Source: a virus
Strand: one strand, 5' to 3'
Length of the DNA: 64,000 bases
IMG/VR virus record: IMGVR_UViG_3300033273_000208
Coordinates: 9,884 to 73,883 of that record
Shown here in pieces: positions 1 through 37,700 of the stretch (position 1 is the stretch's first letter; each line of letters opens with the position of its first letter). A program made the position numbers and the translations under genes. The notes beneath the pieces are model-generated. The model ran no database searches. It saw only the letters and a list, made by a program, of their open reading frames with translations, and was not told the DNA's origin.

Positions 1-185
1 AACTGCGGTACATGTGGAATGAACAACAGTTCCAAACTCTCATTCCTAAGTTAAAGACACCAGGCAAAACCATCCCACAATATATGAATGACTCATGGTA
101 TTGGTTAGGGTGGGGTATCCATGGCAATCGTACCCACTATGCATATCAATACCATCGAAAGATGGAACTGAAATATGTAATGTGA
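1..185 (+). CDS. 3' end of a probable phage-tail-lysozyme-like protein (partial)
   Basis: Frame from nt 3 reads LRYMWNEQQF...PGKTIPQYM..WYWLGWGIHGNRTHYAY..., recalled as cyanophage Phage_lysozyme2-like C-terminus; stop TGA 183-185 lies inside the promoter box GTGACA. Confidence 0.5.
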   Translation, partial: LRYMWNEQQFQTLIPKLKTPGKTIPQYMNDSWYWLGWGIHGNRTHYAYQYHRKMELKYVM

Positions 186-241
186 CAATCCAATAACCTT
201 CACACGGGGCAGCGTTGCTGCCCCGTTTCTGTGTGTATAAT
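182..241 (+). promoter_or_regulatory. early promoter repeat, copy 1
   Basis: GTGACA 182-187, CTTCAC 198-203, TATAAT 236-241; 10-bp GC-rich inverted repeat 204-226 in between. Confidence 0.75.
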
Positions 242-266
242 GAAGAGGTCCAAACGACACAAGACA

Positions 267-9319: not shown

Positions 9320-9541
9320 ATGGACAACTTGAACGAAAACTTTAAGAACATTGCTGAAGCATTTAATCATACAAATGCTCGCTTACAGTTACTAGAGGAG
9401 GCGGTCTCCAAAATGCCACCGCCAGGTCCAGCAATGATTCAGTACAAACCTCCTGGGTCGGAAGAGTATAAAAACCTAAAACAAGTCTTCGATGATCTCT
9501 ATGACAGGATAAATACAATCGAGACAGTTCTTGGTATTTAA
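9320..9541 (+). CDS. hypothetical coiled-coil protein
   Basis: 73-aa ORF coupled to next gene. Confidence 0.7.
   Translation: MDNLNENFKNIAEAFNHTNARLQLLEEAVSKMPPPGPAMIQYKPPGSEEYKNLKQVFDDLYDRINTIETVLGI
9509..9515 (+). promoter_or_regulatory. T4-type late promoter
   Basis: ATAAATA 25 nt before the 9541 start. Confidence 0.65.
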
Positions 9542-16781: not shown

Positions 16782-19700
16782 ATGCAAAAGAACATCAACG
16801 TATCTGACAGAGTTGCTTATCAGGTACCTGATTTTATCAGGGAAGAAGATCAGCAGTTCGTAGACTTCCTGTTTGAATACTACAAGTCACAGGAAAAGAC
16901 AGGCAGGCCCTTTGACATCCTCAATAACGTCAATCTCTACCTGGACGTTGATTCTTATTCTCAGAGAACCCTCTCTGCAGGCACCACACTGCTCAAGGAC
17001 ATCGGTTTCGTTGAAGACCTCATTGAGGTTGAGTCGATTGATGGATTTATCGAAAAGGATGGCAGCATCCTGATCGATAATGAAGTCATCTACTACGAAT
17101 CGCTGACTAGAGGTCCTGATGCGATTCTGACCCCTGGCATTTCGATCGAAGAGTTCAAGAAGAAAGAACAACTCCTGGAATCTCCGTTCCAATACTTTGA
17201 TGGCGTCCAAAACACCTTTGATCTACGATTCCTTGGTGAACCGATTCAACCCGTCTCGGCAGATCACCTCATTGTGCGTGTTTATGGCGTAGCACAGATT
17301 CCTGGTGAAGACTATTTCGTTGAAGGCGACACTATTCGCTTTGCAACACCCCCTAGAGAAAAACTCGGCACCGATGACCCGAACACAACCTCCATTATCT
17401 ACATGGTGGGTTTTGCGGACATCAATATCGACACTCTGGACGAAAATCCAATCCAAGATGGTTCTAAGACCCATCCGCTTCGCTTTGGTACTCAGTTCTA
17501 TACTCCAGTATCAGAAGTTGGTCTGATCGTCAACAGAAATGGTGTCTTCCAGCAACCATTTGTTGATTATGTGATCTATCAGACTACTGCTGATGGCACA
17601 TACATTGAGTTCCGTGGTTTGCAACTGTCTGCCAGCGAAAGACTGACGATTCGTTCGATTGAGTACATTTCTCCCGCTGTTGGATCGGGGGCTCAGATCG
17701 TTTCTAGTGTCAATGAAGACGGTCTTCTGATCGACCTCCTGGTTAAAGAGGGTGGTAGTGGTTATCGCCTTGAGTTTGCACCCAAAGTAACCATTACTCC
17801 GTCTGACCTTGGTGGTGTCGGTGCAACTGCACGTAGTTTGATCGGTGGTGCTAAAAATATTAACTTGATCGGTGGTGGTCAGGGATATACCTCATATAAC
17901 CCCCCTCTGATTGAGATTGCTCCCCCTACAAACCCCTATGGCACTCAAGCAACAGCAGAACTGGTTGTTGATGATGAAACTGGTCAGGTAAGTTCCCTCA
18001 AGATCACTAACTCTGGTTCTGGTTACGACTTCATCCCCGCAGTTAGTTTTAAGAACCCCAGTGGTGCTGCGATTACCGATCCTGAGATTGACAGTGAGGG
18101 TCGTCTGGTAACCGACAGCATTAGTGTGACTAATGGTGGTCTTGGTTATTCCAATCCCCCTCTGGTACATATTGACCAGGCTCCTGTAGGTGGCATTGAT
18201 GCCCAAGCAGTCGCTGTTTTGAACCCTGAGGGCATTGTGGTCCAAGTTGTGATCACAAACCGTGGTAGAGGGTATACCAATGCCCCCAGAGCACGTATTA
18301 TTCAACCCGTTGGTGCACAAGTCCTTGGTGTGACTGTTGCATCTGGTTCAGTTACTGACATTGAACTGCTGACTGGTGGTAGAGGTTACGTTGACCCCCC
18401 ATCTGTCTATATTGTCGATGATCGTAAGGACTCTGCTGGTCTCCCCATCGGCGGTACTGGTGCAACTGCTGTTGCAACCATCTTTAACGGTGAAATCACA
18501 GATATCAGCATTACCAACTTTGGTGAGGGGTATGATCCCGCATTCCCACCGAAAATCTACATTGCAGAACCTCAAGCGGCTAGAGCATCTGTAGATATCG
18601 GTTTTGATGAGGTTACTGGATTTGAAATCAACACACCTGGCTCTGGGTACAAACCCTCTGCTCTGGTGGGCTGTGTGCGTGGCACCAGCGGAACCATCTC
18701 CTACGATAATGTAGGAAACCAAATCTTTGCAACCGAATCTCAACTCAAACTCAGCAATCATATTGCTGGTGCTGAAGTTGTCTCTCTCGACACACTTTTC
18801 TTACGTCAGATCTTTGATAAGATTCGCCGTCAGTACCTGCCGACCATTCGACTGGATTATACCAAGGTAAATCCCGTTCAGGTCATCAAACGTATCCGTG
18901 ACTTCTATGTATCTAAGGGTACTAAGACTGCAACTCAGTTCCTGTTCAAAGTTCTGTTTGGTGAAGAGGTTGATGTCTACTATCCCCGCGATGAGGTCAT
19001 TTCTCCTTCTGCTGCAAGTTGGGTTGTTGATACCATCCTTCGTGCAACCCTTATTGAGGGTAACCCAGACGATCTGATCGATGGTGAGATCGTTCAACTC
19101 GTAGATGAAGTCGATACTAACGTTACTGCTGCTTCTGCATTGATTGAGAACGTTATCTCGATTATTAAAGGCACTGACACCATTTACGAACTGGCAATCT
19201 CTGAAGAAACCCTTCAGGGCAAGTTTATCATCCCATATAAGACAAAACTGGTTGAGTTTCTGAGCAAGACTGATCAGATCATCACTGTGGACTCCACAAT
19301 CGGATGGCCTGCAAGAAACGGTACAATCCGAATCAATGATGAGGAAGTTGTTCAGTATAAAGAGCGTTCACTGAACCAGTTCATCGAATGTACTCGTTCT
19401 AAGAACGGTGTGGTTGAAGATTGGGATCCTGGCACTATTATCTATTCTGATATCTACGTTTACGTCAACTATGGCACTGATCAGCAGTGCAAACTGCGTA
19501 TTCTGGGTATTGCTGAAGCAGGAAGTACAACTCTCGACGATACTGGTTCTTACTACCTCGAAGGCGATAAACTGACCGTTGCATCTCTTGGTGCTACCGA
19601 TCAGGACGAAAAACTGTCCTCTTGGTTGTACAACGTCAAAAAACTGATTTCGGTTGAGTCTGCAACTCCTGGTGGTCAGAATAATCAGACTGCAACCATC

Positions 19701-22700
19701 GTAACAAGCAATCCTCATGGTTTGCTGGTGGAAGATAACGTGACAGTCTATGGTGCAAACCCAACTGTCTATAACGGCACTTTCCAAGTCACAGCACGTC
19801 TTGATGAGTATACATTCTCCTATCAGATGCTTGCTCCTACGGATATTATTCCTCAGGGCAACATTCTGCTGTCGGTTGACCTAAACCGTGGTAAGTCCGA
19901 CGTTACTGCGATCAATACTGCGATCACACCGTTTACCAGTAATATCCAAAACTCGTTCTTCAATGCACAGTATGTTTATGCTGCTGCAACGGGTCTTCCC
20001 AACTACAAAGTTGGTCCGTTTATTGGCACTGCACTGATTCCTGGTAACCAACGCAAACTCTTGCGTTTCCCCAGAAAGGCAACAACGGTCTCCAAGCGTG
20101 AAACTGTAAGACCCAACACTGCCGTTGGTGCATGGGTCAATGGTGTTTCTGTATGGTCCTATAAGTCCTCTGAGTTCCTGCGCTATGGTCCCCTGACAAG
20201 CATTGACATCACTAATGGTGGTCAAGGGTATGACGCTGGCAATAAACCACAACTGGAGATTTCTGGTGGTGGTGGATCTGGTGCAACTGCAGAAGTTACC
20301 GTTAATGGTTCCCTGTTCTCCATTGAGGTCACTGACGGTGGTACTGGATATAAGACACAACCTCTGGTGTCGGTTGTTGGTGGCGATGGCATTGGTGCTA
20401 CAGCACAAGCCGTTATCACTGGTGGTCGTGTAAGTCGTGTTCTGGTCGAACAACCTGGAACTGGATATACATCCCAACCCCTGATCTCTATTACTGGTGG
20501 TGGCGGTAGTGGTGCTACAGCAACTGCAAGTGTCCGTGGTCCTATTTCTGCAGTAACTCTGACCAATGCTGGTTCTGGTTACACAGAACTTCCCACTATT
20601 AACCTAAACTCTGGTTCTGGTGCTCTTGCACAACCAATCGTTATCAATGGTCGTATTGTCTCTATTGCTATCATCAACTCTGGTAGTGGTTACACAACTG
20701 CACCCAACATTGTGATTAACGGCGATGGTTTTGGTGCTATCGCAAAAGCAGTCATTGGAACTATCGGTGAAGATAAGGGTAAGGTCATTAGTGTCCAGAT
20801 CCTGAACAAGGGCATTAACTATACTCAGGGCAATACAACAATCCGTTTGGAGGCAGTTGGTGAGTTTGCAACGTTCAAACCCAATGTTTTCCAATGGACC
20901 AAGAACCTGCATTATGATCTTGCAGACAAGTATGACTTTGCAAGAGGTTATGTCTTCACAGGTTACAATAACCAGTTCGGTGGCGAATATGCACACCTCG
21001 TTGACCCGAAAGAACTGCGCTATGTAGTTGGTGACAACGTATTCCTGGATCCTGCAACAAATACATTCCAAGAACAGACTGCTAACAACGAGCACTCTCC
21101 GATTCTTGGTTGGGCATACGATGGTAACCCCATCTATGGACCATATGGTTATATCGACCCCACAGACCAGAATAGTGGTCTGAGAAGACTCCGTTCTTCT
21201 TATCAGTTGAAGTCTTCACTGGTCTACGAGGTAGACTCCAACCCCAATCCCACTCGTGGCGATGGTCCTCCGCTGAGTGAGTATCCTGCTGGTACATTCG
21301 TTGATGACTACGAGTATGCATTCCAGTTGGGTGATCTGGACCCCTACAACGGTCGTTTCTGTAAGACCCCCGAGTATCCTGACGGCACTTATGCATATTT
21401 CGTCACTATTGACGAATCTGATGCGGGTCAAGCAGTATTCCCATATATCATTGGTCCTGAGTTCTATTCTCAACCAGATACCTGGAATATGAGTCAGGAT
21501 GCGACTCAGGATAATATTCCTTCCGATGTTGTCCGTTTCCGCGATCCGTTTACCGAAGTTGACATTGATGTTGATCGTCAACCCAACAGAGAACCAGATA
21601 TCCTGACTACAGAACTTGAGGCATATCCTCTGATCTTGGAAATCCAAGATACTAACGGTGATGGCATCATTGACTCTAATGAGCAGTTAGAAACTATCGA
21701 ACTCTCTGAAGAATCAACTCTACAAATCTATGATTACTTCCCAACTGTTTCTGACGAGTCTAGAGTTGATATTGAAGTCGAAACTATTACTAAGTTTGAA
21801 TCCGCACAGATTGACGGATTCGTTATCGAAAATCCTGGTGTTTCTTATCAGGTAGATGACGTTATCTTCTTCAATAATGAGGGATCTGGTGGTTTTGGTG
21901 CTTCTGCAGCGGTTTCTGCTGTTGAAGGTCTCAGCATCCTCGGATATCAGAAGATCATTGAAGATGATGTGGTATACGGTAAGATTACCACTGATGGTAA
22001 CCACGAACTGTATGTTGGTGATGAGGTAATCGTTACATCTACAGTTATCCCCGACAATACCAATAAAACCTACTATACCAAGGTTGTTTCTGGTATTGAG
22101 GATATTGTCATTGATCAAGAGGGAGTTGGTTACAACGAATCGATTCCTCCCACATATGAACTGATCACGACTTCTGGTCAGGATGCAGTATTTAATCTGA
22201 ACGTTACTCAGACTGGTCAGATTACAGAGGCTCAGATCAGCATTATCAACTCTGGTAATCAGTATGATCCTGAGAATCCTCCACAAGTACGTGTCTCCCA
22301 CCCACAAATCTTCAAGAAGACTCGCTACTATGCTGGTGAATACAGAGAAACCACTCAGAGTGAGGAAACTCTTGGTGTATTCAATGTCAACCACTCACTG
22401 ACAAATGCTCTTCGTTATACCTATGTCTGTGGTTCCATCACTAAGTCAGATGGCACAACCGCTGCATGGATTGCTAAGTTTAACGATGTTGGCGATCTGA
22501 TTTGGGATCGTACACTCGAAACCATCGATGGTATCACCAAGACTGCTAGATTCAAGCAGATGTACCTCGATGAGCGTGCAGAGAATGACATTATCTATGT
22601 TGTTGGTGAAACTGAGTACGATAATGCAAACAATCGTCCCGACATCCTACTCGTTAAGTATGAGTCGGCATTTGACAATGCAAACCAACCCGAAGGTCAA

Positions 22701-25700
22701 GTAAGATACCAGAAGGAGATTTCTGGTGTGTCTGGTACTACTCGTCGTGACTATGCGATGGGTATCACCCTTGGCGAAGAAGAAAGAGTATACATCTGCG
22801 GTTATACCGACACCAACTCACCCGACCCCGATGATATGTGGGTCATTCAGATGAATGAAGAAGGTGAGATGAGAGAGAAGCGTAAGTTCTCTTCTTCGGA
22901 TGATGATGAGCGTATGCACCAGATCAAGTATCTGGGTGATGCAAGATATCTGTTTGTCGGCATGAATATGTCCGACTATTACATGATTATTGGTGAGTTC
23001 TTCTTCGATGGTAATAACATCGAACTTTCCTATGCTAAGAACATCAATATCTCTGGTGGTAGACCCCAGAATCCTCGTTTCACGATTGACAACTATAATG
23101 ATGTATATCTGACATTTGATATCTTTAACAATGCCATCCAGAAGAACTCTGCTGTTGGTATTGCCAAGTTTGCTTATGATCAGATCAATGCTAATGAACC
23201 CACCTGGGATTGGTATAAAATCCTTGCACCTAGCACAGAGTTTGTTTCTATCACCAATGCAGACATCAATATTGATATTTTTGGTAATGTGACCCTGGTC
23301 ACTGACACCAAACTTACCGAAAACACCAGAAAAGTTGGTGCTCACTATATTAAGTTTGATGGTGAGATTCTTAAGCAATCTACTATCGAAGATGTTGACA
23401 CAGTTGGTGTTCAGGCAACAACCCACACTGTTGATGATTCGGGAGACCTGATCATCTTTGGTCAGAAGCAAAAGTCCGATCAAGCGGCATCTTACCGTTT
23501 TGATGGTTCTGAGGGTAGTGGCGGATTTATTTCTGCTATTACTAACATTACTGGCACTGCCGCAACTCGTGGTGCTGGTGTTGGTACTCTTGGTTCTATT
23601 TCTGCGGCAGATCAAATCAGAGCAACCAATATCGGCACTCTGACTACTGCAACTGCTGTCAACGTTCTCCGTGCTGGTAAGATCTCAACCGTTGGTGGAT
23701 TTAGTGCTGCTGATGTTCGACGTGCAGGTACCGTCCTTGATCTGGAGAACTTCAGTGCTGCTGATGCCCGTCGTGGTGGTGCAGTTAATGGTGTAACCAA
23801 CATCTCCGCTGCAGATCCGAAGCGTGGTGGTGTTATTGCATCTGTAAACAATATTGGTGCTGCAGATCAAGCAAGAGGTGGTCGAATCACCTTGATGGCA
23901 AATATCTCTGCTGCAGACCCCATCCGTGGTGGTAATATCCTCGGTGTTGGTAATGTTAGTGCTTCCGATCCTTCCAGAACTGCTGGAACATATCAGGCTG
24001 TTACCTATACAACATCTGGTAGTGGTGTTAATGCCGTCTTTGATATTACAGTCAATGCTGCAGGTGCAGCAATCATTACAGTTGTAAATGGTGGTATTTC
24101 GTTTGCAATCAACGAAACAATCACTGTTGCTGACGCTCAGTTGGGCGGTGGTGGTGCACCTGATGTGACATTCCAAGTCAATGCTATTGGTGGTTTTAAC
24201 TACACAAATGTTCCTGTAACCAGTACAGATGTAAACAGCACTGGTTCTGGTGCCACTGTGGATGTTGGTGTTTCTTCCACTGGTGATGTTTCCTTGACAG
24301 TCAACCAAGGTGGTATTGGATACTATAACGGTGAGACTCTGACCATTTCCGATTCGGATATCGGTGCCTCTGGTGCAGCGAACCCAACGTTTGATGTATC
24401 TGGTCTTGGTGGATTCTCTTATACCAACGTTGCTAGCACAAACAATGGTGTTGGTGTTAATGCAACCTTTAACGTAACTATTGATGGCACGGGTGCGGCA
24501 ATCGTTGTACAGGTCAATCAGGGTGGTCTTGCATATGCTGCAGGCGACACAGTAACCATTTCAGATTCTCTGCTTGGCAATAATGGTGCAGCAAACCTGA
24601 CCTTTGATGTTGAAACGATTACTGCTCCTGCAACATATACAAACGTTGCTGCCACTTCGACAAGTGGCATCGGTACAAATGCAACGTTCTCCGTCACTAT
24701 CGATGCTAACGGTGCCGCATCTATCGTATCTGGCACTCCTGCTGGTCTGTCTTATGCGGTCGGTGACACCATTACGATTGCAGACACATCTCTGGGCAAT
24801 AGTGGTGCTGCTGACCTCACATTTGAGGTAGCAACCATCAAAGCACCCCCTCTGTATAGCAACGTTGCTACAACATCTAATGGTGCTGGTTCTGGTCTGA
24901 CTCTGCAGGTCACTATCAATGCAGATGGTTCTGTAGCATTCTTGAACGTCACCGATCCTGGTAATGGATATGTGGTTGGTGATACCATCACTATCCAAGA
25001 TGCAGATGTTGGTGGTACTGGTGCTCCAAATATTACTGCAGATGTTGAGTCTGTTGGTGGTGGTGCAATCTATACCGTAAGCAACTTTACGAGCACTGGT
25101 TCTGGTACTGGTGCCACATTCAACGTCACTGTTGACAGTAGTGGTGCTATTTCTCAGGTAAATATCATTAACAGTGGTAATGGATTCGTTGCTAACGAGA
25201 CCGTGACTGTTCCCGATAGTGAACTGGGTAACAACGGCGGTGCAGACTTCACATTCAATGTGACTGCAACTAACGGCATTACTTATAGTGGTATCTCCAC
25301 GTGGACATCCAGCAATAATGCATATGGTGGTGGTACTGGTGCAGTATTCAACATTGAGTTGGATAACCTGGGTAACTTTACAGCACTGACACCAATCAGC
25401 CGTGGTGCAAACTTTGTTCTTAACGACACAATCACCATCCCAGATTCTCAGTTGGGTAACACTGGGGCACCTGATGTAGTCCTGAGTGTGGCGTCCATTG
25501 AGGGTCATACTTACAATAATATTTCTGCCACCACAAGTGGAACTGGCGAACTCGCAACCTTCAATGTTGTCGTTGATGGCAATGGTCTGGCAACACCTAC
25601 TGTTAATGACCCTGGTAGAGAATATCAAACTGGTGATACATTCACCATTACCGATGCTCAACTTGGCAACTTTGGTGGTGCTAATCTGACCTTTGAGGTC

Positions 25701-28700
25701 ACCGTACTTCAAGGTATTGTCTATAGCAACATCAGTGCTTCTGAAGGCAGTGGCGTTAATGCATCTATCGACGTTAACGTTGATGCTAGCGGTGCTGTTA
25801 CTATCAATATGAATAAGACGGGTCGTGGATATCTGATTAGCGACACTCTGAGAGTAACTGATGCACAACTGGGTGGATATGGATATGCCGACATCACGTT
25901 TGATGTTCAAACAACCATTAACGTCTTTGATGAGACAAAACTGAACCGTGGTACTCCCCAATACTACAATGCAACCGATGCAACCATTGATACGGTTAAC
26001 TATAAGTGGGGAACTGGTTCTACTGCACTAACTGCAGCAAACCACTATGGTATTACAGGTTTCGACCTGAATACATCCGAGTGGACCCTGCAAGGTTGGT
26101 TCCGTATTGATAGTGCAACTCAAGCACTGAACAACTCTCAACCCACATTCTTCGAGACTCATCCTAATGATGGCAGCAACCCTTCCAATACGCTGAGACT
26201 GTATGTTGATGGTGATAGTGGTAGTGCAGACTATGGAAAACTGAAACTGGTCCATGAAGGAACCACTGACGTTGCGGTATCCGTTTCTGCTACTGTTTGG
26301 GCAACATTTGCTGGTGGCGCATGGGTTCATGTTGCACTGTCTAAGACTCAGCCCACATTGGGTGCATATGACTATGCAGCATACATCAACGGTCAACAGT
26401 TGGGTCTGTGGTCTGGTAGTACGGATGATATTGGTGTTGATGAAGTATACGTTGGTGGTATCAAAGTTCCAACAACATATACAACACTTATCGGTAACAT
26501 CGATGACTTTGTGATCGATGATGATAGTCAGTATTCTGGTGCTTCTTTCACTTTGCCTGATGCTGCTATTCCGATTAGAACAACAAACACTGGTGTATCG
26601 ATCTATAAGATCGATAGACAGCATGATCGTCGTGGAACATTTGCAGTAACTGATCTGCCGAACTCCACATCGGTTGCATTCCTCGCAGAATCTAACTGGT
26701 CATATAACACCCAGACTCAACCTGCAATGACTAACTGGGAGATTGGTCCTGGTGGTCTGCAGATTCTTGACTATGCTGAGGTTACCAGTCAGTTGACTAC
26801 AGGCATCTATACATTTGACTACGATTCCGTTCTGTACGGTTCTAAGACTTCTACCGTTCCTTCTCCTGGTGGAAAGAGACTTGTACTGTCTCCTGTCGTA
26901 ACACCAAAGTATTATATCAAGGATGCGACATATCAGAAGATTGATAGTGTCCAACAACTGACCTTTAATCAGGATGTCCGCTTTACTAAGGGGCAAATCC
27001 TGCAACAGTACAACGAGCAGGGCACTACCCAGCGTTACGGCACTATTGTTGAAGTTCCAGAGGGAACTATTGAGAATCCTGGTCTGGGCACAACCTACAA
27101 GATTGGTAACATCTTCCCTGCTGCAGCAACATTTAATACCACTGATAAAATCAGAAGCACCAGTGCAACTGATGCAGGTCTGAACGTTATTACTGGCATT
27201 ACATTCACAGTTGCTCGTGATTTTGCTGAATGGGAACAGGCGGCATCTTACATTGCTGGTGATCAGGTTTACTCTCAGGGTAATATTTACACAGCAACCA
27301 CCAATGGCACCGCTGGTACTAATGAACCAGTCCACACAACTGGCAATGCTAGCGATGGTGGTGTTTCTTGGGACTTCACAGTTTCTGCCAACACTCCCCT
27401 TGAAGTAGATCTGTCGAATACCCCATATCCTACACCTAAGGATCCTATCTGGACAAAACTGAAGATCTATGACATCGGTGATGTTGTCTACTACGGCAGA
27501 AACAAGTATACCGCAACTGCTGCTGGTCGTTCTTCTCAGAATCCTCCCACCCACACTACAGGCACTGCAACAGACGGTACTGTAACTTGGCAATATACTT
27601 CGACATATGATCCTCTGAGTGATTATGCAACCTTCAAAGAGTTTGATGCTGGTGAAAACTGGTATTCTCTCACGGTTAATAAAATCTACAGCGATTCCAA
27701 CTTCATTGCTAATGACAACCTTAGCATTGGTGGTTCGGTAACTGTCAATCCTAAAGAGGATGCACCCACTATCCTTCAAATCAATGGTATCGGTAGTGTC
27801 AAAGAGATCTCTCTCATTGCAGTTCTCGACAAGACAATCCTCGTTGATACGCAGGAAAGAACTGATCTTGTTTACTGTGTCGCAAATAGTGCACACAAAT
27901 ACTCCGCAAATGACATCCTGTTTACAGAAGGATTCAGCACAAGCGAGTTTAATGGTTCGTTCTTCGTCAGAGAAGTCTTCTCTTCTAGAGAGTTTACTTT
28001 CCAAGTTCGTGAAACACCTGCAGCAGAACCAGCATTCCTGCAGAACAGCATTGCTCGTGTAAACATTTACACTAAGCACCCAACTCTGCTTCTGATCAGG
28101 AACCACAACTACCTCTTTGATATGAGTGACAGCAGTAACCTTGGTTACTATCTGTCATTCTCTCAAGATAACGAGTTCAAACTGGAATACTCCTTCAATA
28201 ATATTGAACGTCAGGGAACTCCTGGTGTGTTTGACGGTACCAATGCACCATTCGTTAAACTCAAAGTTGACGGTCAAGTTACTAATATCTCTTATTACTT
28301 CGACCCCTCCAGAACTGGTGCAAACTCCCCTGTGGGTGATAAGTCCTTCATTGATGTTAAGAAGACACCGTTTGACGGCAGATATACCGTCAGCAAAGTT
28401 CTTTCTCAGACTGAGTTCCAGTTCCCACTGCTATTTGAACCTGAAAACAATAATGCCGAAATCGGTAGTGATGATCAGGGCAATCCATATTCCGTTTACT
28501 CCACAACATCCAAGAGAGCAATCGGTCCTATTGCAGACATCAAACTGATTTCTGCTGGTGGTTTCTATCAGAGACTGCCCATCATTTCCGATATTGCATC
28601 TTTCCGTCAGATTGAGCGTGTTGAGATTATCTCTGGTGGTTCTGAGTATGCTATCGGTACATATGATCAGGTGCCCATTAACGGTGACGGTGAAGGCGGT

Positions 28701-31700
28701 CTCTGCCGCATCGAAGTTGCAGTTGATGAAGAAATCGGTTCTGGCACTATCGTTAGCGTAACCGTTACCGATCCTGGTAAGGGATATACAACTGCAAGCA
28801 TCGACGTTGATGGAATCCAAGGTATTCTTGGTCCCACGCTGACTGGTTCGGGTGCTGATTTGGATGTCATCATTCCTGATGAGGGATCTGGTGCATCGGT
28901 CTTCCTGACTGGTAAGAATATTGGTAAGATCAAGAAACTCAAGAACAATGAGTTTGGTTATGGTTACTCCCACGACTACACTCTGAAACCTGAGATCACC
29001 TTCCCGATCAACCTGCAACTCTTCAATACCTCGATTCTGTCGCAGATCACCATCACCGATCCTGGTGCTGGATACACCTCTGCTCCTGCGGTGATCATTT
29101 CTGGTGGCGGTGGTGTTGGTGCCGAGGCAGTTGCAGTCGTTAAGAACAACCGTCTGAGTGAGATCCAGATCAAGAATCCTGGTGCTGGTTACTCTTCAGA
29201 ACCCAGCGTAACTCTGAAGTCTGAGTTCAACTACGTTGTCAACCTTGACTTGAACTACCTACAGTTCAACTTCCCTCATGGCATTACTAATGGTGCTGCT
29301 ATTCAGTTCCGTGCCGATGATGTTGGTACTACTGTTGGCGAACTGCCGAAGCCCAGTTCTGCTGGTTTGACCAGTTTGGTGGTGGGTCAAACCTACTATG
29401 CGATTGCTGGAGAATCCAACTCTCTGGAAGGTGACCAACTCCGCTTTGCACTGACTCCTGCCGACGCCGAGTCTGGTAACTTTATTACATTCCTGACTCA
29501 GGGTGCTGGTCGCCAAGTCCTGCTTACCGAGGTCTTCGGTGGTAAAGCAGAGGCAGTGGTTGAAACATCCAGATTCCTGGAAGGTGAGAAAGTCTATCAA
29601 GGCGATTCTGAAGAAACCGCAACCGTTTTTGCATATGTTTCTGAGAATAATGGTTGGCAGCTTGGTCCCAAGATTCTGAAACTTATCAATGCTACTGGCA
29701 CATTTGTGGTCGGTGAGCGTGTAAATGGTTCTGTGTCTCGTGCATCTGGTGTTATCGATAACGTTTCCCTTGCTAAGGGCGTCCTGAACATCGACTCTCT
29801 GACACAAACTCCTGGTAGATTCATCGATGACGTTGGTAAACCTTCCGAAATCGTTCAGAAGATTCAAGACTCCTTCTTCTACCAGAACTTCTCTTACGTC
29901 ATTAAGTCCACGATTCCCATCAACCGTTGGCGTGAGCAAATCCTGGAGAATAACCACCCGACTGGTTTCAACATGTTCGGTCAGCTTCAACTGGCTGGTG
30001 GTAAGGATATCTCTGGTCGTAAGGTTGGTACTGAGTTCATCAAGCAGGTGAACATCAATGAGTACGCCAATGTCAACCAAATCACATCCTTCGGTGCTGC
30101 TCAACCGATCTACACAGACTTCAACAATACTGAGGTTCTGTTCCGTAAGAAGCGTTTGACCAACTCTGAGGAAATCCTCACCTCCATCGTTAAGAAACTG
30201 GACGATATTGCCGATCAGTTTGATGGCATTCAAACAGCATTCAATCTTACGGTTGAGGGTGAACAGGTCATCGTTAAGAACAACCAGTTGTTGATCACCC
30301 TGAACGGTATCATTCAGGCACCTGTCGATGCTTACGATATTGTTGGTGGTCAGATCGTCTTCAAGGAAGCACCGAAGGCACCTTCTAAGGTTGTCTATCG
30401 TGATGTGGGTCTTGAGTTCCTGACTATAACTCGTCTGAACCTGACAGATGTTTCTGGCATCTATCCCGAGATTGGATATCAGATCTCTGGTGCTTCTAGC
30501 GATGCTTACGCAACTGTAGTCGCATCTGGTACGAATACAATCGATGTGGTTGATATTACAGGTGGTCCTTTCCAGAACAACGAAAGAATCGACGTTTCTG
30601 CTCTTGGATTCAGTGCACTGATTGGTTCACAGGAAGTCCTCACACAGTCCACACTGTATGAGTTTGATGAAACTCTGGTTTGCACCAACCGCAACCGTGG
30701 CAACCCGACTGCTCAGGTTAACGCGATCAACTTGGATGAAAACGGCGATGCCAGCAGTGCAATCGTTGTAAGCAAGACAACTGGTACTGCTAAGTATGAG
30801 ACTGGCGTCTTTGACTTCCGTCTGCAGGATATCATCTACTCCACTCGCTCCAACTTGGCGGCACGTATCACATTCCTGGCACCTTACAGAGATCCCGTCA
30901 CTGACGATGTTGTTGGCGAACAGATCCTGACTGCTGGTTCTTCGTTCTATGGTCTGCTGTTTGAGCGTATTGTTAGCACCAGCTATCCGAACATCCTGTT
31001 GGATGATATTTCTAAGTCCACCATCACACCTACCGAACTCTTTGACAACGAAGAGCGTATCAACTCGTTCTTCCTTGACTTTGAAGAAGTTCGTTCCACT
31101 GAGGTAACTTATACCGATCTTAGTAGTGGAGTCTTTAGTAATGGCGATGATATCCGTAACATTAAGGTCTTCTATAACAACCCCATTTACGGTGCTGCAT
31201 ATGGAACTGCTGCACCACGTTATTACGATGCTAGAAATCGCATTTCTGCATCCAAAGATGAAATCATTGACTTTGCAACTGCAGAGATTGCAGTTGAGCA
31301 TGAAGACTTCTACTATCCTGGTCAACCTCAAACCGACTCCCGTTCTAGATTCCGTGACGGTTATCGTCTGATCATCAAGAACAAGGATTGGATTGTTGCC
31401 AAGACTTATGAGGATATGATCCTCCAGTATCCTTCTCTGGTGGTTCCGAATAGTGATAAGTGTAAGCGTGACTTGGGACATTTTGTTGATGCAGTTGCAT
31501 ACGACACCTATGCAGGTGGTAACAAGTATGCTCGCAAGTTTATCCAGATGTACTTCACAGGTCAGGGTCTTGGTTATATCAACCAGCAACTTGCAGAAAC
31601 CACTTGGGCATATGGTCGTGCAGCAACCTACATGAAGGATGCTATCACTAACCAACTGTCTGGTACTGAGACTATTGATTCTGTGTTATACACCAAGTAT

Positions 31701-34700
31701 CAAGATCTTACAGTTACCGAAGGTGGCGCTACCTATGGTGCACCTGGCACTGTCTCCAACACCGATACTGGTGCTTGTGCAGATGTTCAATCGGCAGTTG
31801 ATACTTTGGCAACAGCGATCACTGAGACGCTGCTTGGTAACCAAGACTTCGACGACATTGACGCCGAAGAACCCACATATAATACTACCGAAGAAAAATG
31901 CCGTCGTGACGTTGGTTACTTCGTTGATGGTCTTGCGTCTGACGTTGGTCAGGGTGGCAACCTGGGTGTTGTTACCTGGGCACGTTTCTACTTCGAGAAT
32001 GGAACTTTCATCAGCAACGGTGTTGCTGGCGAAGAAGCAGAAACAATCACCGCTCTGAACAAAGCACGCGATCTTGCTAAAAGAGCAATCAACAACCTTC
32101 TGTATGAAAAGGATTTGACAATCCTGTATGATCCTGCATCTTACGGTGGTTCTGCTCCTGGTCATGACTATGATGCAAACTACGCTTCTGGTACTAACCA
32201 AGATGCAAGCAACTGTGCGGACGTTCAGTCCACCATTGACACTCTGACTACGATTGCTACAACTGCAATCAACAACCAGACACTTGCAAATATCAACGCT
32301 CTGTCCTCCATCGATGATGGTTCCTTCAGAGATGGTGAGACTATTCGTGTTATCAAGGTTGCATATAAGAACAAGTCCACAGGTCTGTTTAACAGATTGG
32401 ATTCTGTTCGCGGTGTCACCTCTGGTGCAACCATGACCCTGGAGGGTGTTAACTCTGGTCTTAAGTGGTTGTTTGCTTCCAGTGCAGGTGTCAATGGAAC
32501 GTTCCAAGACGATGAGTACATCACCAACTCCACCATCACCAACCCTGGTGCTGCACAAGTTACTCAGAGTGTTCTGAATGTCAAGTCCGACTTGGCAAAC
32601 AGCACTAAGTCTCTGAAGTTTGTTGCAAACTCCTGGCTGAAGAAGGCAGAGTCCTACGATGTAGACTTCGGAACTGGCGATTTCACTCTGGAAGGATGGT
32701 TCTACCCCACTGGCATTGTTGGTCAGCAAACCCTCTTTGACTTCCGTCGTACAGCGACTGAGGGTCTCATGATTGAGATGAACAACGACACTCTCCGTGT
32801 TTATAGCGGTTCAGGTACTGTCGTTATCATTTCCAATGCGGTCTTTACTGCTAACACCTGGCACCACGTTGCAGTCGTCAGAACATCTGGCGTGATGCTC
32901 GCATTCGTGGATGGTGTTCAAGCAGGTGGTAGTGCTACCAATAGCGATGACTTCGGATGGGGTCCTTGCTACATCGGTTCCGACTTGAATGGATCTAATG
33001 GTTTCATCGGTAATGCCGATCAGGTCGCAGTCTACAAGGGATATGCCAAGTTTACTTCGGCATTCACTGCACCCACTAGCAATGACTGGGATGATGAGAG
33101 AATCGTTCTTGGTCTGAATGCTGAACAACCCTTCATCGTTTCTACTGCTGAGGTTTATGCTCAGTTCAGTGGTCAGACAGTATCGTCTGCAACTGCTAAG
33201 AGAATCGACTACGCCGATAAGCGTGTAATCGTTGAGGACATTGATCTGGGTCGTGACTCCCATCGTGATGCGGCAGATCTTATCCTCAAGAACGATAAGT
33301 GGATCTCTGAGGTTGCTGTCGGTCGCATGAAGGCGAAGTATTCTGACTTCGTGTTGCCTGGTGATGATCCCGCAACCAACATATATCAAGGCACCTACTA
33401 TTGCCTCCGCGACACCGAAGAGTACATCCTCGACGCTATCGTTAAGGATCTCAAGTATGGTGGTGATTACTATACAACCGTCGCGGCCAAGGGTTACCTG
33501 GAGAAAGATGGCAGTCTGGACTTCATCGGCAAAGAACTTCTGCAATCCCTGTACGCATGGGAGCAAGCAGGTGAACTCTGCAAGTACGTTGTTTCGACAA
33601 CTGACACAGATCTGACCGATGCATACACTGAAAGACTCCGCATTCCTCTGACTGGTTCTGCTGCAACGCAGGCAGTTCTGGATAACATCGACGCTCTGAC
33701 TCAGAACATTCTGAACATCCTTGCACCTACTGGCGACCGCTTCCGCGACGCTGGCGATGCTCTGTGGTTGAACAGAACTTACATTGCTGAGGAAGTTGTT
33801 GGTTACATTGAGAACAAGTGGGAAGTTACCATCAATGGTACCTACTACGACAAACTGCAGATCCCTGGTGGTAACAACGGTCAGGTCTGCATCCGCGACA
33901 TCAAGGAGTACATCATTCCTGCAATCATTGCTGACCTGCTCACAGGTGGTAATGCAGCAGTCAACGAAGTCATCGACTTCTACCTGAATGGTGAGCAAGA
34001 TATCCTTCACGTCAGCGAAGAACTGCTGCCGATGCTGGATGCAATCTCCTACACCAAGTATCTGTCCACCAAGGCAATCAACCAACTGCTTGTTCAGTTC
34101 GGTCAAGCACCTGATCCTGCTCAGGGTTCTACAAACTACGACGATTACTACATCGCTCAGTACACTCAGGCAGTTCCCTACATCGATCACACGGTAACCG
34201 TGGATCCTCAGGGTTATGACGCCAACCGCGCTGATAACAACCTGCTGATTGATGCAGCAGACATGATTGAAAGGAACAAGAAGCAGATTGCTTCTGAGGC
34301 AGTCATGAGAATGAATGACCTCGCTAAGTTCCAAGATCTACAAATCCCTGGCGGTCAGCAGAACTGTATCGATGATGTGGTTGGTTTCATTGAGGCACTT
34401 GTCCACGACATTCGTCTGGGTGGCAACAGCAAGGTTTTTGATGCTGCTGAACTGTACATCGAACCTGAGAACAACTCCCTCCGTCACATTGAGAGTGAAG
34501 CAGAAGCATCCATCTACGCATACAAGATGGCGAGAGACATCTGTGTTCTCGCAATGCGTAACGGATTCGGACGCGATAACATCTATGGCTATGGGTCTGG
34601 TGAGGAAAATGATCCTAGCGTTGAGTCTTACGATCAGAACCCACAATCCTCTCGCATCATTGATGCTGCAAACATCCTCGACAGAAATATCCGTTTCATT

Positions 34701-37700
34701 GCTGAGGAAGCAGTTTATCGTACAACGATCCAGTATCCTTCCCTCACCATCCCTGGTGGCAACATCAACTGTGTCCACGACATTGCAGACACCCTGAATG
34801 CAATGGTCTTCAACATGAAGTACGGTGGCAACAACATGGTTTATGACGCTGCTGAGTTCTACGTGGGTACCTCTGGTCTCCAGCACGTTGCATCTCAGTC
34901 TGCTGAGTCTGTCTACGCATTCAACCAGGCACGCGACATTGCGATTCAGGTTATGCGTGCAGTGCCCGTTATCAACACTGGTAACGAGGTTCATGGGTTT
35001 GAGCAGAAGTATTATGACGAGCTCGACTACGAACCCTACAAGTCCAAAACCCGCGACTATGTGACTCTGGATGAGGCTGCTCTGACTGGTGGCACTACTG
35101 CAAACCGCTCTCGTGCTGCTGACGCATACAACCTGATCTACAACAACGCTCGCTGGATTGCAGAAGGCACCGTCAATACCTTCGTGGCATCTAATAGTTG
35201 GACAATCCCTAACGGCACCGAATCCTGTATCGATGATACTGAGCGTATCCTGAAAGGTGTTGCATATCACGTTGCTTACGGTGGTAACTCCTATGTCTGG
35301 GATTATGCAAACGAGTATGTCCAAAATGGACACATCGGTTCTCCCCAGAACGGTTGGACGCAGGCGATCTTCAACTACATCAACAGCAATATCCTGCCCG
35401 ATGTTATCCGCAACATCCAACCCACTGCAGCAAGTTCCTGGAACGCTGCAGGTCACACGGATCTTCAGCAATACAGAGATCTCACGATCACTACTGACGT
35501 GACCCAACCCGCATGTCCTACTGAGGTTGCTGCTGCTACAACGCTGCTGTCGATCGTTACCGATGCTGTGGTGAATGGCAACATGAACCACGCAGCTCGT
35601 ACCGTTCCTCCTGGCGGTGGTGCATGTGCAAACGTTGAGTCTACAATCACAGATCTGTTTGCAATCGTCACCGATACAATCAACAACTACACCAGTCTGG
35701 GTGGCGTTCCTCGCACACTGCCTAGCATCTGGCCTCTGAAGTACACCGCAGATTCTGCTGAGCGTGATCTCACCGTCACCTACGACAGTGCTGCTACTTC
35801 CTGGGGTACCACTTGCCAGAATGTTGAAACAACCATCAACGGTCTGTTTGATATCGTTCTGCAAACCATCACAGACGCAAGTGCTGCATCGCCCAGTAAC
35901 TACCTGGATAGTATCTCTAGAACACTGCCCACAAACGGATTCACCAACACTCTGTATCAGCAATATACCTGCTACAACGTGATTGATGCTGCATGGACTC
36001 TGTTCGATCTGATGCTGGATAGTCTGGGTTCTGGTTCCTACTCAAACCGCCTGACTGCAGAGTTCATTCGTAAGAATGATCACGCGATTACTGCTCGTGC
36101 TGTGGCAGCAACCTTGGCACAGTATCCTTCGGGCGATATCCCCGATCAGGCATATGCACAGGATGTTCTTGAAGCATGTATCTACGATATTGCAACTAAC
36201 GGCAACGCAGGTGCATTCAAACTCGCAAATGAATGGTTCGATGGTGAAGGTAACTTCATCGCTTACCCAGATATTCAGAGAATCCGCCTCCTGTACTGCA
36301 TGAACAAGGTTCGTGAGTATGCGAAGGATGTGATGTTCAACTTCAATGATATTGATTGGTCTTTGTACGATGTTTGGAGTCCTGAGCAAGTTCAGGGTTA
36401 TACTCCTCGCCTGGAATGGGATCAGGAGAGCACCGAGTTCAATATGGATTCCTCGTTCAACTGCCTGGAGTTTGCTATCGAGCGTGGCACATTCCCCTCT
36501 GACAACGTGGTCACATTCGTTGCTTCCACGGACGCTCAGAACCTCACCAACTCCTATAACGAAGGACAAGACTACAACACAGACCCCGCTCTGGTTCTTC
36601 TCACTCCGACAATCGAAGTTGGTTGGGAGCGCGAAGAAAATCGCGTACGCATCAACCGTACCAACTTCTTCCGCCGTGGCGATGTTCTGAAATATGTCCT
36701 CGCTTCTGCAACTTCCCTGGACGGTGCGAACGATCAAGATTACTACTACGTTCTCAACGCAGAACCGCAGTGGTTTGAGATCTCTCGTATGTCGAAGCAC
36801 GATGCTCGCTTCCGCGACTTCACTTTCGATCTTAACAACACAGGTAACCAGCAGTTCTTCACTGCTCGTCGTGCAGGTGTTACTCGCGTTGCCAACGATT
36901 ATGGAACACGCGATATCCAGACCCCCATCTCTGCTGGATTCAACATCGCAGACGTGCTCGTGGGCACGACAACTGGTGCTTCCGCCGAAGTATCGTCTAC
37001 CTTTATCAATAACGCAAAGATTGTTAAGACCTTCAAATACTATGGTCTTGAAACGATGTCTGAGACTACCTTCATCGACGGCGAACAAGTTGTCGTGCAG
37101 GGTGCCGTCACAAACAACGGTTATGTCATGCAGCACGTCATTCCTGACGAGTTTGACAACGGTTGGATCAAACTTGAAACACTCCAAGGCACAATCTCTC
37201 AGGGAGATACCATTGAGGGCATCACATCTGGTGCAACTGCGGTTGTAACTGCAGTTGAGGAAGATCGCCTGCTTCTCAATGCCAAGACTGGTATCTTTAG
37301 TCAGGGTGACTGGTTGTTCAAGAAAGATACCGCAACCGAAGCATATATTGATGTCTTCAATGACAAGCGTGGTGTTCTTACCGCAACTGACGGTGGTCGC
37401 ATCACTATGGACGTTGAAACAATCAATAGTTCCTGGGAAACTGGCGATGTAATCTACGGTTCCATCACAGACAAGTATCTTGATCTGGTTGGTATTGATG
37501 ACCAGGGACAAGCAATCTCCGTGAACACCTACGTGCACGGTCAGAAAATCTACAAACTGTCCCTCTCTAGCGTCTCACGCGATACGGGTTACACGGGCGA
37601 CTTTGTTTCTGGTGATACCGTATATCTGCTGCAAGGCACAACCGTTGCGGTACCTGGCATTACAGCAACTGTATCCCAGTGGGATTATCGCCCCGAGGAT

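What the first reader, a model, noticed from the sequence alone, without database searches (positions are those of the whole stretch)
23523..25915. Russian-doll protein architecture: nine nested domains inserted in a LamG loop of gp7
Seen: nine consecutive 16-19-aa segments (FISAITNITGTAATRGAG, VGTLGSISAADQIRAT, NIGTLTTATAVNVLRAG, KISTVGGFSAADVRRAG, TVLDLENFSAADARRGG, AVNGVTNISAADPKRGG, VIASVNNIGAADQARGG, RITLMANISAADPIRGG, NILGVGNVSASDPSRTAG; 23523-23987) are followed by exactly nine units of about 72 aa (xYxNV..GxxATFxVTxD..G..GxxYxxGDTxTIxDxxLG..GAxxxTFxV; 23988-25915). Only the innermost pair is contiguous (..DPSRTAG-TY..). The block sits between SYRFDG and VFDE..KWGTGS..WTLQGWF, i.e. inside the N-terminal part of a LamG/ConA domain. 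Inference: the order is A1..A9 B9..B1, with each domain inserted into the same loop of the previous one, so the chain runs out by one strand per domain and returns, forming a monomeric hairpin rod with both ends at its base. This would be an unusual way to build an extensible fibre.
Basis: partly seen in the sequence, partly recalled or inferred. Interest (0 to 1): 0.85.

Follow-up and report, generated by a model that had tools for sequence, protein, structure and literature searches.

The report
Nine-deep nested domain stalk, cyanophage baseplate
A giant baseplate protein of a T4-like cyanophage carries an 800-residue insert in which nine copies of one small beta-barrel domain appear to sit one inside the next like Russian dolls. 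This would make a hairpin-shaped stalk and would be nested more deeply than any case I found described.

Summary
Residues 2249-2402 of the 7,523-aa ORF (16782-39353, +) hold nine ~17-aa A units, and residues 2403-3045 hold nine ~72-aa B units.

- **A+B is one domain.** In about 45 other proteins, including two stand-alone 89-90-aa proteins, one A plus one B form a single contiguous ~88-aa domain.
- **The block is an insert.** It is 798 aa and is absent at exactly one point from the closest isolate orthologues (S-SZBM1, P-RSM6).
- **The count is conserved.** It stays 9+9, with no unit gained or lost, in uncultured relatives down to 55% identity.
- **Fold predictions.** AlphaFold2 of the three innermost levels (A7A8A9-B1B2B3) gave pLDDT 91.5 and pTM 0.78. 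In VIA-align, one ~92-residue barrel (EF-Tu domain 3) superposes on model ranges 34-120, 16-191 or 1-265, which is the nested pairing. A trans test (A6-A8 against B2-B4) gave weak support. The full 827-aa fold left A1-A8 unplaced.

The claim that the block sits inside a LamG loop is not supported: it lies about 40 aa upstream of the Pfam LamG match. Co-variation of A and B counts could not be tested. The closest precedent is the six-level nested Si3 insert of cyanobacterial RNA polymerase. The scan noted the same architecture before on another genome (e1-6032529).

The parts
16782..39353 (+). Giant 7,523-aa virion/baseplate protein at the gp7 position, directly after the gp6-like ORF 14707-16776. 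It is the host of the insert.
   Evidence: The flanking region matches 292 cyanophage records annotated 'baseplate wedge initiator gp7', 'virion structural protein' or 'putative fiber', each directly after gp6. The Pfam Baseplate_wedge match is weak (E 2.5e-4).
23490..23525 (+). Upstream anchor SYRFDG plus linker SEGSGG (aa 2237-2248). This is the last conserved host sequence before the insert.
   Evidence: It aligns with ...HRFDD of S-SZBM1 and ...ARFEN of P-RSM6, where the block is absent.
23526..23579 (+). A1 (aa 2249-2266). Proposed first strand of the outermost, basal barrel; partner B9.
   Evidence: Independent PSSM score 7.7 bits. Pairing is inferred only.
23580..23627 (+). A2 (aa 2267-2282); proposed partner B8.
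   Evidence: PSSM 12.0 bits. Pairing is inferred.
23628..23678 (+). A3 (aa 2283-2299), degenerate in this phage; proposed partner B7, the most divergent B.
   Evidence: PSSM -8.9 bits here, but the unit is canonical in L138/P0008 and closer to the motif in L137.
23679..23729 (+). A4 (aa 2300-2316); proposed partner B6.
   Evidence: PSSM 12.1 bits.
23730..23780 (+). A5 (aa 2317-2333); proposed partner B5.
   Evidence: PSSM 4.6 bits.
23781..23831 (+). A6 (aa 2334-2350); proposed partner B4.
   Evidence: Part of the trans-complementation test.
23832..23882 (+). A7 (aa 2351-2367); partner B3 in the AlphaFold2 model.
   Evidence: Strand at model residues 2-6, pLDDT about 85. Single ~90-residue barrels align to model range 1..262-267 with 70-84 residues.
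23883..23933 (+). A8 (aa 2368-2384); partner B2 in the AlphaFold2 model.
   Evidence: Strand at model residues 17-23, pLDDT about 90. Barrels align to model range 16-19..190-195 with 65-85 residues.
23934..23987 (+). A9 (aa 2385-2402), contiguous with B1. This is the innermost, distal domain.
   Evidence: PSSM 30 bits. pLDDT 88-97 in both models.
23988..24197 (+). B1 (aa 2403-2472): strands 1-5 plus a short helix of the innermost barrel.
24198..24416 (+). B2 (aa 2473-2545).
24417..24632 (+). B3 (aa 2546-2617).
24633..24851 (+). B4 (aa 2618-2690).
24852..25067 (+). B5 (aa 2691-2762).
25068..25280 (+). B6 (aa 2763-2833).
25281..25508 (+). B7 (aa 2834-2909); carries a 5-residue insertion after strand 1.
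25509..25718 (+). B8 (aa 2910-2979).
25719..25916 (+). B9 (aa 2980-3045): the basal B unit. The chain returns to the host protein here.
25917..26051 (+). Host sequence resuming with INVFDETK... (aa 3046-3090). It lies between the insert and the LamG match.
   Evidence: It aligns with ALFDSTKQ... of S-SZBM1.
26052..26516 (+). Concanavalin-A-like / Laminin_G_3 domain (aa 3091-3245), downstream neighbour of the insert.
   Evidence: Pfam PF13385 at E 3.9e-5, 24.3 bits (below the 27.6-bit cut-off), profile positions 9-140. The insert-free orthologues score 32-36 bits.

Best explanation
The block is a nine-level recursive self-insertion of one small domain.

**The domain.** The complete domain is about 88 aa. 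It has an N-terminal strand with a conserved (I/V)SAAD..R.(A/G)G turn (the A part), followed by five more strands and a short helix (the B part). Together these are predicted to form a six-stranded beta-barrel.

**The nesting.** In this protein, each domain is interrupted between its first strand and the rest by the next copy. The chain therefore runs outwards giving one strand per domain (A1 to A9). It turns at the only uninterrupted copy (A9-B1), then runs back completing each barrel in reverse order. The pairs are A9/B1, A8/B2, and so on to A1/B9.

**The result.** This gives a monomeric, self-complemented hairpin rod of nine barrels. Neighbouring barrels are joined by two chain crossings. 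Both ends meet at one point, which is why the whole 798 aa can sit as an optional insert in the giant gp7-position baseplate protein without disturbing it.

**Shown by computation:** the repeats, the one-domain nature of A+B, the single-point insertion, the conserved 9+9 count, and the predicted nested fold of the three innermost levels.

**Inferred:** the same pairing for levels 4-9; a rod length of roughly 20-27 nm, assuming about 2.5-3 nm per barrel; and the function. I take the function to be an accessory stalk or whisker projecting from the baseplate rim that contacts or spaces the host surface. No tip domain and no binding site were identified.
For: 1. **A+B is one domain elsewhere.** In a search of 1.84 billion representatives, 226 proteins matched at E<=1e-3, and many align to exactly A9+B1. 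In a MAFFT alignment, about 45 of them have the A motif directly joined to B. P0036 (89 aa) and P0039 (90 aa) are nothing but A+B. S-RIM14 has A-B copies in plain tandem.

2. **A1-A8 are copies of that first strand.** The independent PSSM scores 4.6-12.7 bits for seven of the eight (A3 fails), against 0.0 at best elsewhere in the protein.

3. **Single-point insertion.** S-SZBM1 and P-RSM6 (47-50% identical in the flanks) read ...RFDD-NTNA-LFDSTKQ... where this protein has ...RFDG-[798 aa]-VFDETK.... Four more isolates also lack the block. An insert like this needs its two ends close together.

4. **Conserved count.** Lineages L004/L005 (82% identity), L137/L139/L144 (63%) and L145, L146, L148, L149 (55-61%) all have 9 A and 9 B. 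The A array has no indel, and each unit keeps its own peculiarities.

5. **AlphaFold2 of A7A8A9-B1B2B3.** The alignment held collinear orthologues plus contiguous A-B proteins, so no pairing was imposed. Mean pLDDT was 91.5 and pTM 0.78; all five models scored 89-91.5. A7 and A8 are confident strands.

6. **The model is nested.** In VIA-align, the same compact ~92-residue barrel, E. coli EF-Tu residues 301-393, aligns 81-82 residues to model range 1..265 (A7+B3) and 74-75 residues to 34..120 (A9+B1). aIF2-gamma domain 3 aligns 70-73 residues to 16/17..191 (A8+B2). T4 gp18 residues 99-188 align to 36..120 and to 19..192. All are weak: Z 2.8-3.9, rmsd 3.1-4.7 A.

7. **Complex prediction, B2-B4 with A6-A8 as partner: weak support.**
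   - Score 0.46 (runs 0.45-0.50); best of 3 controls 0.00.
   - The mark was reached by 58 of 80 solved complexes and 2 of 110 mismatched pairs. At 0.60 or under, it was reached by only 7 of those 80 and by both mismatches that passed.
   - Runs agree in at least 96% of contacts, and partner pLDDT is at least 81.
   - My own alignments were used, so the counts hold only roughly.
   - B2-B4 had pLDDT 91 with the A partner, and 53 and 71 with unrelated partners.

8. **Mirror test.** Similarity among A units correlates with similarity among their proposed B partners (r 0.44, 2.8% of 40,000 permutations as high). The parallel pairing gives r -0.05.

9. **The family nests elsewhere.** P0034 has A, then B profile positions 8-29, then a complete A+B, then B positions 31-70.
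Against: - The full 827-aa AlphaFold2 run did not dock A1-A8. Their pLDDT was below 50, they were modelled as coil or spurious helices, and pTM was 0.28. The alignment there held only three close orthologues for those columns.
- I had no coordinates. The pairing in the three-level model is read from first and last aligned residues of weak structural matches (all Z < 4).
- The trans test is only a weak pass.
- The mirror tests are marginal: p about 0.03 by identity, 0.08 by BLOSUM. The unit-conservation correlation is r 0.55 with p about 0.07-0.13.
- Some relatives carry B units in tight tandem with only a fragment of A between them (P0023, P0069). A B unit may therefore tolerate lacking the strand.
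- No homologue with a different, complete count was found.
- No experiment exists.
Confidence: 0.7

Rival explanations
1. Two independent tandem arrays. The nine B units are self-sufficient domains forming an ordinary beads-on-a-string rod. The nine A units are a flexible or extended tether (or a separate small beta structure) that merely brings the chain back. The equal counts are historical or set by length-matching, not by strand complementation.
For: The full-length AlphaFold2 model leaves A1-A8 at pLDDT below 50 while B2-B9 still fold at 50-78. Relatives exist with B units in tight tandem and only a remnant of A between them (P0023 'VRTAG', P0069).
Against: - A units keep the exact motif that is an integral strand and turn of the contiguous domain.
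- The A array has no indel across orthologues down to 55% identity.
- The three-level model places A7 and A8 confidently, and they co-align with B3 and B2 in single-barrel superpositions.
- B2-B4 confidence fell from 91 to 53-71 when the A partner was replaced.
Confidence: 0.14
2. Strand exchange between molecules. The A array of one copy of the protein completes the B units of a neighbouring copy in the baseplate, as in donor-strand exchange. This would tie subunits together rather than make a monomeric hairpin.
For: A6-A8 is predicted to bind B2-B4 as a separate chain, with weak support: score 0.46, best control 0.00; mark reached by 58 of 80 solved complexes and 2 of 110 mismatched pairs, but at 0.60 or under by only 7 of those 80 and by both mismatches that passed; runs agree in at least 96% of contacts; partner pLDDT at least 81; own alignments used, so the counts hold only roughly. 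The strands can therefore in principle be supplied in trans. Baseplate wedge proteins occur in multiple neighbouring copies (established knowledge of the T4 baseplate).
Against: A9 and B1 are joined without any linker, which fixes an intramolecular hairpin and its register. The single chain A7-B3 folds confidently on its own with pTM 0.78. The insert is optional in close relatives, which fits a self-contained module better than an assembly interface.
Confidence: 0.08
3. The A units pair with B units in some other register, for example A(i) with B(i) or shifted by one, so the architecture is interleaved rather than strictly nested.
For: None found beyond the fact that levels 4-9 were not modelled.
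Against: With A9 fused directly to B1, the parallel register would need the chain to span the whole rod. Similarity matrices give r -0.05 for the parallel mapping against 0.44 for the nested one. The model ranges fit A8/B2 and A7/B3 exactly.
Confidence: 0.03

Closest known systems
Si3 insertion of cyanobacterial RNA polymerase beta' (RpoC2): recursively nested sandwich-barrel hybrid motifs
   Same: One small beta domain family is inserted repeatedly into copies of itself. This makes an elongated arm (150 A in the crystal structure) that sits as an insert at one point of a host protein. Several domains are built from distant parts of the chain (PMC10895346). A 2026 survey of 2.7 million domains singles it out as a six-level nest (PMC13114784).
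   Different: - The fold differs: no SBHM similarity was seen, and the best weak matches are EF-Tu-domain-3-like barrels.
- The nest is deeper and strictly regular: nine domains, always split after the first strand, against irregular connections and bifurcations in Si3.
- It sits in a virion protein, not an enzyme.
- It is optional among close relatives.
- There is no solved structure.
Donor-strand complementation in chaperone-usher pili (established knowledge; not tested here)
   Same: An incomplete beta domain is completed by one strand supplied from outside its own contiguous sequence. Repeating this builds a rod.
   Different: In pili the strand comes from the next subunit (in trans), the fold is Ig-like, and the missing strand is C-terminal. 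Here the strands are proposed to come from the same chain (in cis), the strand is N-terminal, and the fold is a six-stranded barrel. The resemblance is in how it works, not in membership.
Contiguous A-B domain of cyanophage virion proteins (uncharacterised; annotated 'YadA domain-containing structural protein', 'fiber', 'tail protein')
   Same: It is the same domain by sequence: phmmer hits down to 1e-47 for multi-copy proteins. BFVD Foldseek hits reach 2.6e-8 to cyanophage structural proteins.
   Different: There the copies are complete and arranged in tandem (S-RIM14, P0005, P0007) or single. Only this gp7 lineage has the canonical A units piled up before the B units.
Six-stranded beta-barrels of EF-Tu domain 3 and T4 tail-sheath gp18 domain I, and barrel domains of Mu/P1/E217/phi812/A-1(L) baseplate wedge proteins
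   Same: Size and strand count are similar. VIA-align gives Z 3.1-3.9 over 74-84 residues at rmsd 3.1-3.5 A. Pfam Gp18_dom_I gives a faint match at E 0.071.
   Different: All scores lie in the range the tool describes as common arrangement. Foldseek finds nothing at E<=0.001 in the PDB, and there is no sequence match to any solved chain. This is a lead, not a classification.
Hairpin stalk of streptococcal antigen I/II adhesins, where A repeats pair with P repeats (recalled from memory; not checked here)
   Same: An N-terminal and a C-terminal repeat array from one chain pair in anti-parallel. This forms a long stalk with both ends at its base.
   Different: There, an alpha helix wraps a polyproline helix and a separate head domain sits at the tip. 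Here, strands complete barrels and no distinct tip domain exists.

Membership tests
Recursive (nested) domain-insertion architecture, A1-B1-C-B2-A2 type | A domain's sequence is interrupted by a complete domain, and the two pieces still form one fold. | tested here: met
   Prediction only. In the AlphaFold2 model of A7-B3, single ~90-residue barrels align to 1..265, 16..191 and 34..120. Sequence shows the same for P0034 at another loop.
Recursive (nested) domain-insertion architecture, A1-B1-C-B2-A2 type | The inserted domain is itself host to a further insertion, repeated to depth nine. | tested here: inconclusive
   Three levels were modelled confidently. Levels 4-9 follow only from nine A plus nine B units and the single-point insertion. 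The full-length model did not place A1-A8.
Si3 / sandwich-barrel hybrid motif family | SBHM fold or sequence similarity to it. | tested here: inconclusive
   No SBHM or RNA polymerase chain appears among the VIA-align or Foldseek rows, and no Pfam match was found. Absence from these lists does not exclude it.
Laminin_G_3 / concanavalin-A-like domain as host of the insert | The insertion point lies within the profile-defined domain. | tested here: not met
   PF13385 begins at profile position 9, 45 residues after the block. In insert-free S-SZBM1 and P-RSM6 it begins at profile positions 4-5, about 43 residues after the empty site. An extra N-terminal strand outside the Pfam model cannot be excluded.
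T4-type gp7 baseplate wedge initiator | The gene lies directly downstream of gp6 in the baseplate module. | tested here: met
   The ORF follows the 689-aa ORF 14707-16776. Orthologues in S-RIM50, S-SZBM1, syn9, S-MbCM6 and ACG-2014d follow annotated gp6.
T4-type gp7 baseplate wedge initiator | Sequence-profile match to a baseplate wedge family. | tested here: inconclusive
   PF23786 Baseplate_wedge scores E 2.5e-4, 21 bits, below its 27-bit cut-off, over 41 residues.
YadA-type head repeats (the name used for relatives in GenBank) | Profile match to YadA head or stalk repeat families. | tested here: not met
   No YadA family was reported by Pfam at E<=1 for aa 2001-3500, or at E<=10 for A9+B1 and for P0036/P0039.
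Chaperone-usher donor-strand complementation | An Ig-like pilin fold lacking its last strand, completed by the next subunit's N-terminal extension. | not tested
   Considered only as an analogy of mechanism. Fold, strand position and cis/trans all differ by inspection.

The most novel reading that the evidence does not exclude
Stacking n first strands followed by n strand-less barrels may be a general, evolvable way in which phage virion proteins build stiff, monomeric, loop-insertable stalks. The same n-plus-n layout seems to recur with unrelated-looking short units in other proteins:
- P0006: nine ~16-aa 'FGQAIDTI' units, then nine tightly packed B units.
- P0064: about four units, then four B units.
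- P0080: about three units, then three B units.

This window would then be the deepest regular domain nest known, nine levels against six in RNA polymerase Si3.
Probability: 0.45. Interest if true: 0.8.

Novelty: new variant of a known kind. Interest (0 to 1): 0.66.

Why it matters
If a structure confirms it, this would be the deepest and most regular case of a domain inserted into itself.

- **A design principle.** A rod of any length could be made from one chain. Every joint would be double-stranded, and both ends would emerge at the same spot. Such a rod could be dropped into a surface loop of any protein.
- **Phage structure.** It would explain part of the unexplained mass of the giant gp7-position proteins of marine cyanomyoviruses. 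It would also mark a variable, probably host-facing appendage of their baseplate.
- **Methods.** Repeat finders and domain annotators that expect tandem copies will miss such architectures.

Tried and rejected
- **Full-length AlphaFold2 of the block** (827 aa, alignment A1): pLDDT 62.8, pTM 0.28, A1-A8 below 50. Uninformative for the outer levels. Foldseek with that model gave meaningless whole-chain matches.
- **Foldseek of the three-level model against the PDB:** nothing at E<=0.001. **phmmer against PDB sequences:** nothing below E 0.3. **Pfam on the block and on the single domain:** only noise.
- **Search for homologues with other counts:**
  - A degenerate DNA pattern for three A motifs at 17-codon spacing in IMG/VR returned 119 or more loci. 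Only one of them (L046, a near relative of the window) holds the array.
  - The search for related loci with the A side and the B9/LamG side gave only 9+9 lineages, plus truncated contigs.
  - The 7-A lineage L138 could not be extended.
  - The first homologous-protein run timed out.
- **Tandem Repeats Finder:** no DNA repeat.
- **Unit-by-unit divergence** between the window and L004 shows no gradient. Unit conservation across seven orthologues correlates with the nested mapping only weakly (r 0.55, p about 0.07-0.13).
- **A global MAFFT alignment of 62 hits to the full block** smeared flanks over unrelated columns, so I did not use it for folding.
- **Idea rejected:** placing contiguous A-B homologues over A(i) and B(10-i) columns to give AlphaFold a co-evolution signal. 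That would have imposed the hypothesis.

Full report
**Context.** The window is the structural module of a T4-like cyanomyovirus. tblastn of the region finds only Synechococcus and Prochlorococcus phages. The finding lies in a single ORF, 16782-39353 on the + strand, of 7,523 aa. This ORF follows a gp6-like ORF. It is followed by baseplate and fibre-like ORFs and then by the neck genes.

Its relatives in 292 phage records sit directly after gp6. They are annotated 'baseplate wedge initiator gp7', 'virion structural protein' or 'putative fiber'. Pfam recognises only a few pieces of the giant protein:
- a YHYH domain;
- a weak Baseplate_wedge match;
- two concanavalin-A-like domains;
- a phycobilisome-protein domain.

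**The observation.** Nine ~17-aa A units occupy aa 2249-2402, and nine 66-76-aa B units occupy aa 2403-3045. To avoid circularity I rebuilt both profiles from other proteins only.
- The B profile finds exactly nine units (i-Evalue 1e-26 to 9e-15).
- The A matrix scores eight of nine units at 4.6-30 bits. Nothing else in the protein exceeds 0.0 bits.
- A3 is degenerate here but canonical in more distant orthologues.
- There is no DNA-level repeat, so the copies are ancient.

**A plus B is one domain.** A search of 1.84 billion representative proteins gave 226 hits at E<=1e-3. Many of them align to precisely A9+B1.
- In an alignment of the shorter hits, about 45 carry the A motif fused to B.
- Two of them (P0036, P0039; 89 and 90 aa) consist of nothing else.
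- In S-RIM14 and several metagenomic proteins, the complete domains stand in ordinary tandem.
- AlphaFold2 gives this domain six strands and a short helix at pLDDT around 90 or above.

**The block is an optional insert at one point.** The two closest isolate orthologues, S-SZBM1 and P-RSM6 (47-50% identical in the flanks), pass directly from ...RFDD to ...LFDSTKQ.... This protein has 798 extra residues between ...RFDG and ...VFDETK.... Four more distant isolates also lack the block.

An insert of this size at one point requires its two ends to meet. A linear string of nine domains would not give that, but a hairpin would.

The Pfam LamG match starts 45 residues after the block. In the insert-free orthologues it starts about 43 residues after the empty site.

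**Conservation.** Uncultured relatives from IMG/VR and JGI at 95, 82, 63 and 55-61% identity all have nine A and nine B units. None has gained or lost a unit, and the A array has no indel at all. One more distant lineage (L138, also seen as P0008) has only seven A units, but its contig ends in the first B unit. I could not extend it.

**Structure prediction.**
- *Whole block.* The whole block did not fold convincingly. A9+B1 reached about 90, B2-B9 reached 50-78, and A1-A8 stayed below 50. That alignment had only three close orthologues over the A array.
- *Three innermost levels.* I then folded A7A8A9-B1B2B3 (267 aa). The alignment held six further orthologue lineages plus short proteins that cover A9-B1, and some also B2. 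Nothing in it pairs A7 or A8 with any B. The result was pLDDT 91.5 and pTM 0.78. All five models scored 89-91.5, with A7 and A8 as confident strands.
- *Reading the topology.* Coordinates are not returned, so I read the topology from structural alignments. VIA-align matches fall into three classes whose ends coincide with the nested domain boundaries: 34-42..116-120, 16-26..190-195 and 1-3..251-267. Each class has only 65-85 aligned residues.
- *Same target, alternative placements.* EF-Tu domain 3 (residues 301-393) aligns to 1..265 and to 34..120. Its homologue, aIF2-gamma domain 3, aligns to 16/17..191, and T4 gp18 residues 99-188 align to 36..120 and 19..192. A compact 90-residue barrel can cover model residues 1 to 265 with 81 aligned positions only if A7 packs with B3. 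The same holds for A8 with B2.
- *Limits.* The Z-scores are weak (2.8-3.9). They say little about fold kinship, but they do report which parts of the model form one compact body.

**Trans test.** B2-B4 was folded with A6-A8 as a separate partner, and the result was weak support.
- The score was 0.46 (runs 0.45-0.50), and the best of three controls scored 0.00.
- That mark was reached by 58 of 80 solved complexes and by 2 of 110 mismatched pairs. At 0.60 or under, it was reached by only 7 of those 80 and by both mismatches that passed.
- The runs agree in at least 96% of contacts, and partner pLDDT is at least 81.
- My own alignments were used, so the counts hold only roughly.
- The B chain's own confidence was 91 with the A partner, and 53 and 71 with unrelated partners.

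**History.** Pairwise similarity among A units correlates with that among their proposed partners (r 0.44; 2.8% of permutations as high by identity, 7.9% by BLOSUM). The parallel mapping gives no correlation. The most alike A units (A6-A8) face the most alike B units (B2-B4).

The family also nests elsewhere. P0034 has a complete A+B inserted between profile positions 29 and 31 of another copy.

Three further proteins show n short strand-like units ahead of n tightly packed B units:
- P0006 has nine plus nine. Eight of its short units are found by an HMM, and the ninth by spacing.
- P0064 has about four plus four.
- P0080 has about three plus three.

The last two counts were made by eye and should be treated as leads.

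**Comparison with what is known.** Recursive self-insertion is documented for the Si3 arm of cyanobacterial RNA polymerase. There, several hybrid-motif domains are assembled from distant chain segments (PMC10895346). A 2026 survey of 2.7 million domains describes it as a six-level nest (PMC13114784).

The present case shares the principle. It differs in fold, in depth (nine), in regularity (always split after strand one) and in setting (an optional virion appendage). I found no solved structure or named family for the domain. In BFVD it matches only uncharacterised cyanophage structural proteins.

The mechanism resembles donor-strand complementation of pili, but in cis. That comparison rests on established knowledge and was not tested here.

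**Mechanism and function.** I take the block to be a self-complemented hairpin rod of nine barrels projecting from the baseplate protein. The double connection between neighbouring barrels should stiffen it. The coincident ends make it portable. I infer a role as an accessory host-facing stalk from three things: its position in a baseplate protein, its presence or absence among close relatives, and the use of the same domain in fibre-like proteins. No binding site was identified.

**Earlier notes of this scan.** After my own analysis, a look-up showed the same architecture had been noted on another genome. A follow-up agent there reached a similar verdict from sequence comparisons alone (e1-6032529). 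The three-level fold, the alignment-range reading and the trans test reported here add structural prediction to that.

Noticed in passing
window 31365-31673 (aa 4862-4964 of the giant ORF): Pfam Phycobilisome protein (PF00502) matches at E 1.2e-16, 61.5 bits, well above its 22.2-bit cut-off. This sits inside the virion baseplate protein. Another first-reader note (e1-6078518) flags the same region.
   Followed up: no
window 20979-21413 (aa 1400-1544): A YHYH domain (PF14240, E 9.6e-31) lies in the same giant protein.
   Followed up: no
window 32658-33038 (aa 5293-5419): A second, stronger Laminin_G_3 domain (E 1.7e-18) lies further along the protein.
   Followed up: no
P0034 aa 199-376 (metagenomic protein, 932 aa): The same domain family is nested at a different loop. 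The order is A; then B profile positions 8-29; then a complete A+B; then B positions 31-70.
   Followed up: partly
P0006 aa 496-1290; P0064 aa ~180-540; P0080 aa ~300-555: Arrays of n short strand-like units of a different sequence type ('FGQAIDTI', 'GVGxFTFS', 'GQPIDQIG') come directly before n tightly packed B units. The counts are 9+9, about 4+4 and about 3+3. The last two were counted by eye.
   Followed up: partly
L138 (JGI contig Ga0213858_10000920), ORF aa 2243-2419; also P0008: A more distant orthologue lineage has only seven A units before its first B unit. The contig ends there, so the B count is unknown.
   Followed up: partly
window 44392-45927 (aa ~235-295), 61405-62520 (aa ~243-283), 9541-13068 (aa ~560-589): Single weak matches to the B profile occur in three other structural ORFs of the window: the 511-aa, 371-aa and 1,175-aa proteins (i-Evalue 6e-5 to 5e-3). 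Degenerate matches also occur in the N-terminal 'GxGY' repeats of the giant protein itself.
   Followed up: no
window 16782-39353 versus isolates: No phage record in the search collection carries the 9+9 block in its gp7-position protein. All complete copies found are from uncultured IMG/VR and JGI contigs. The search collection may leave out records of the window's own genome, or of one very near it.
   Followed up: partly
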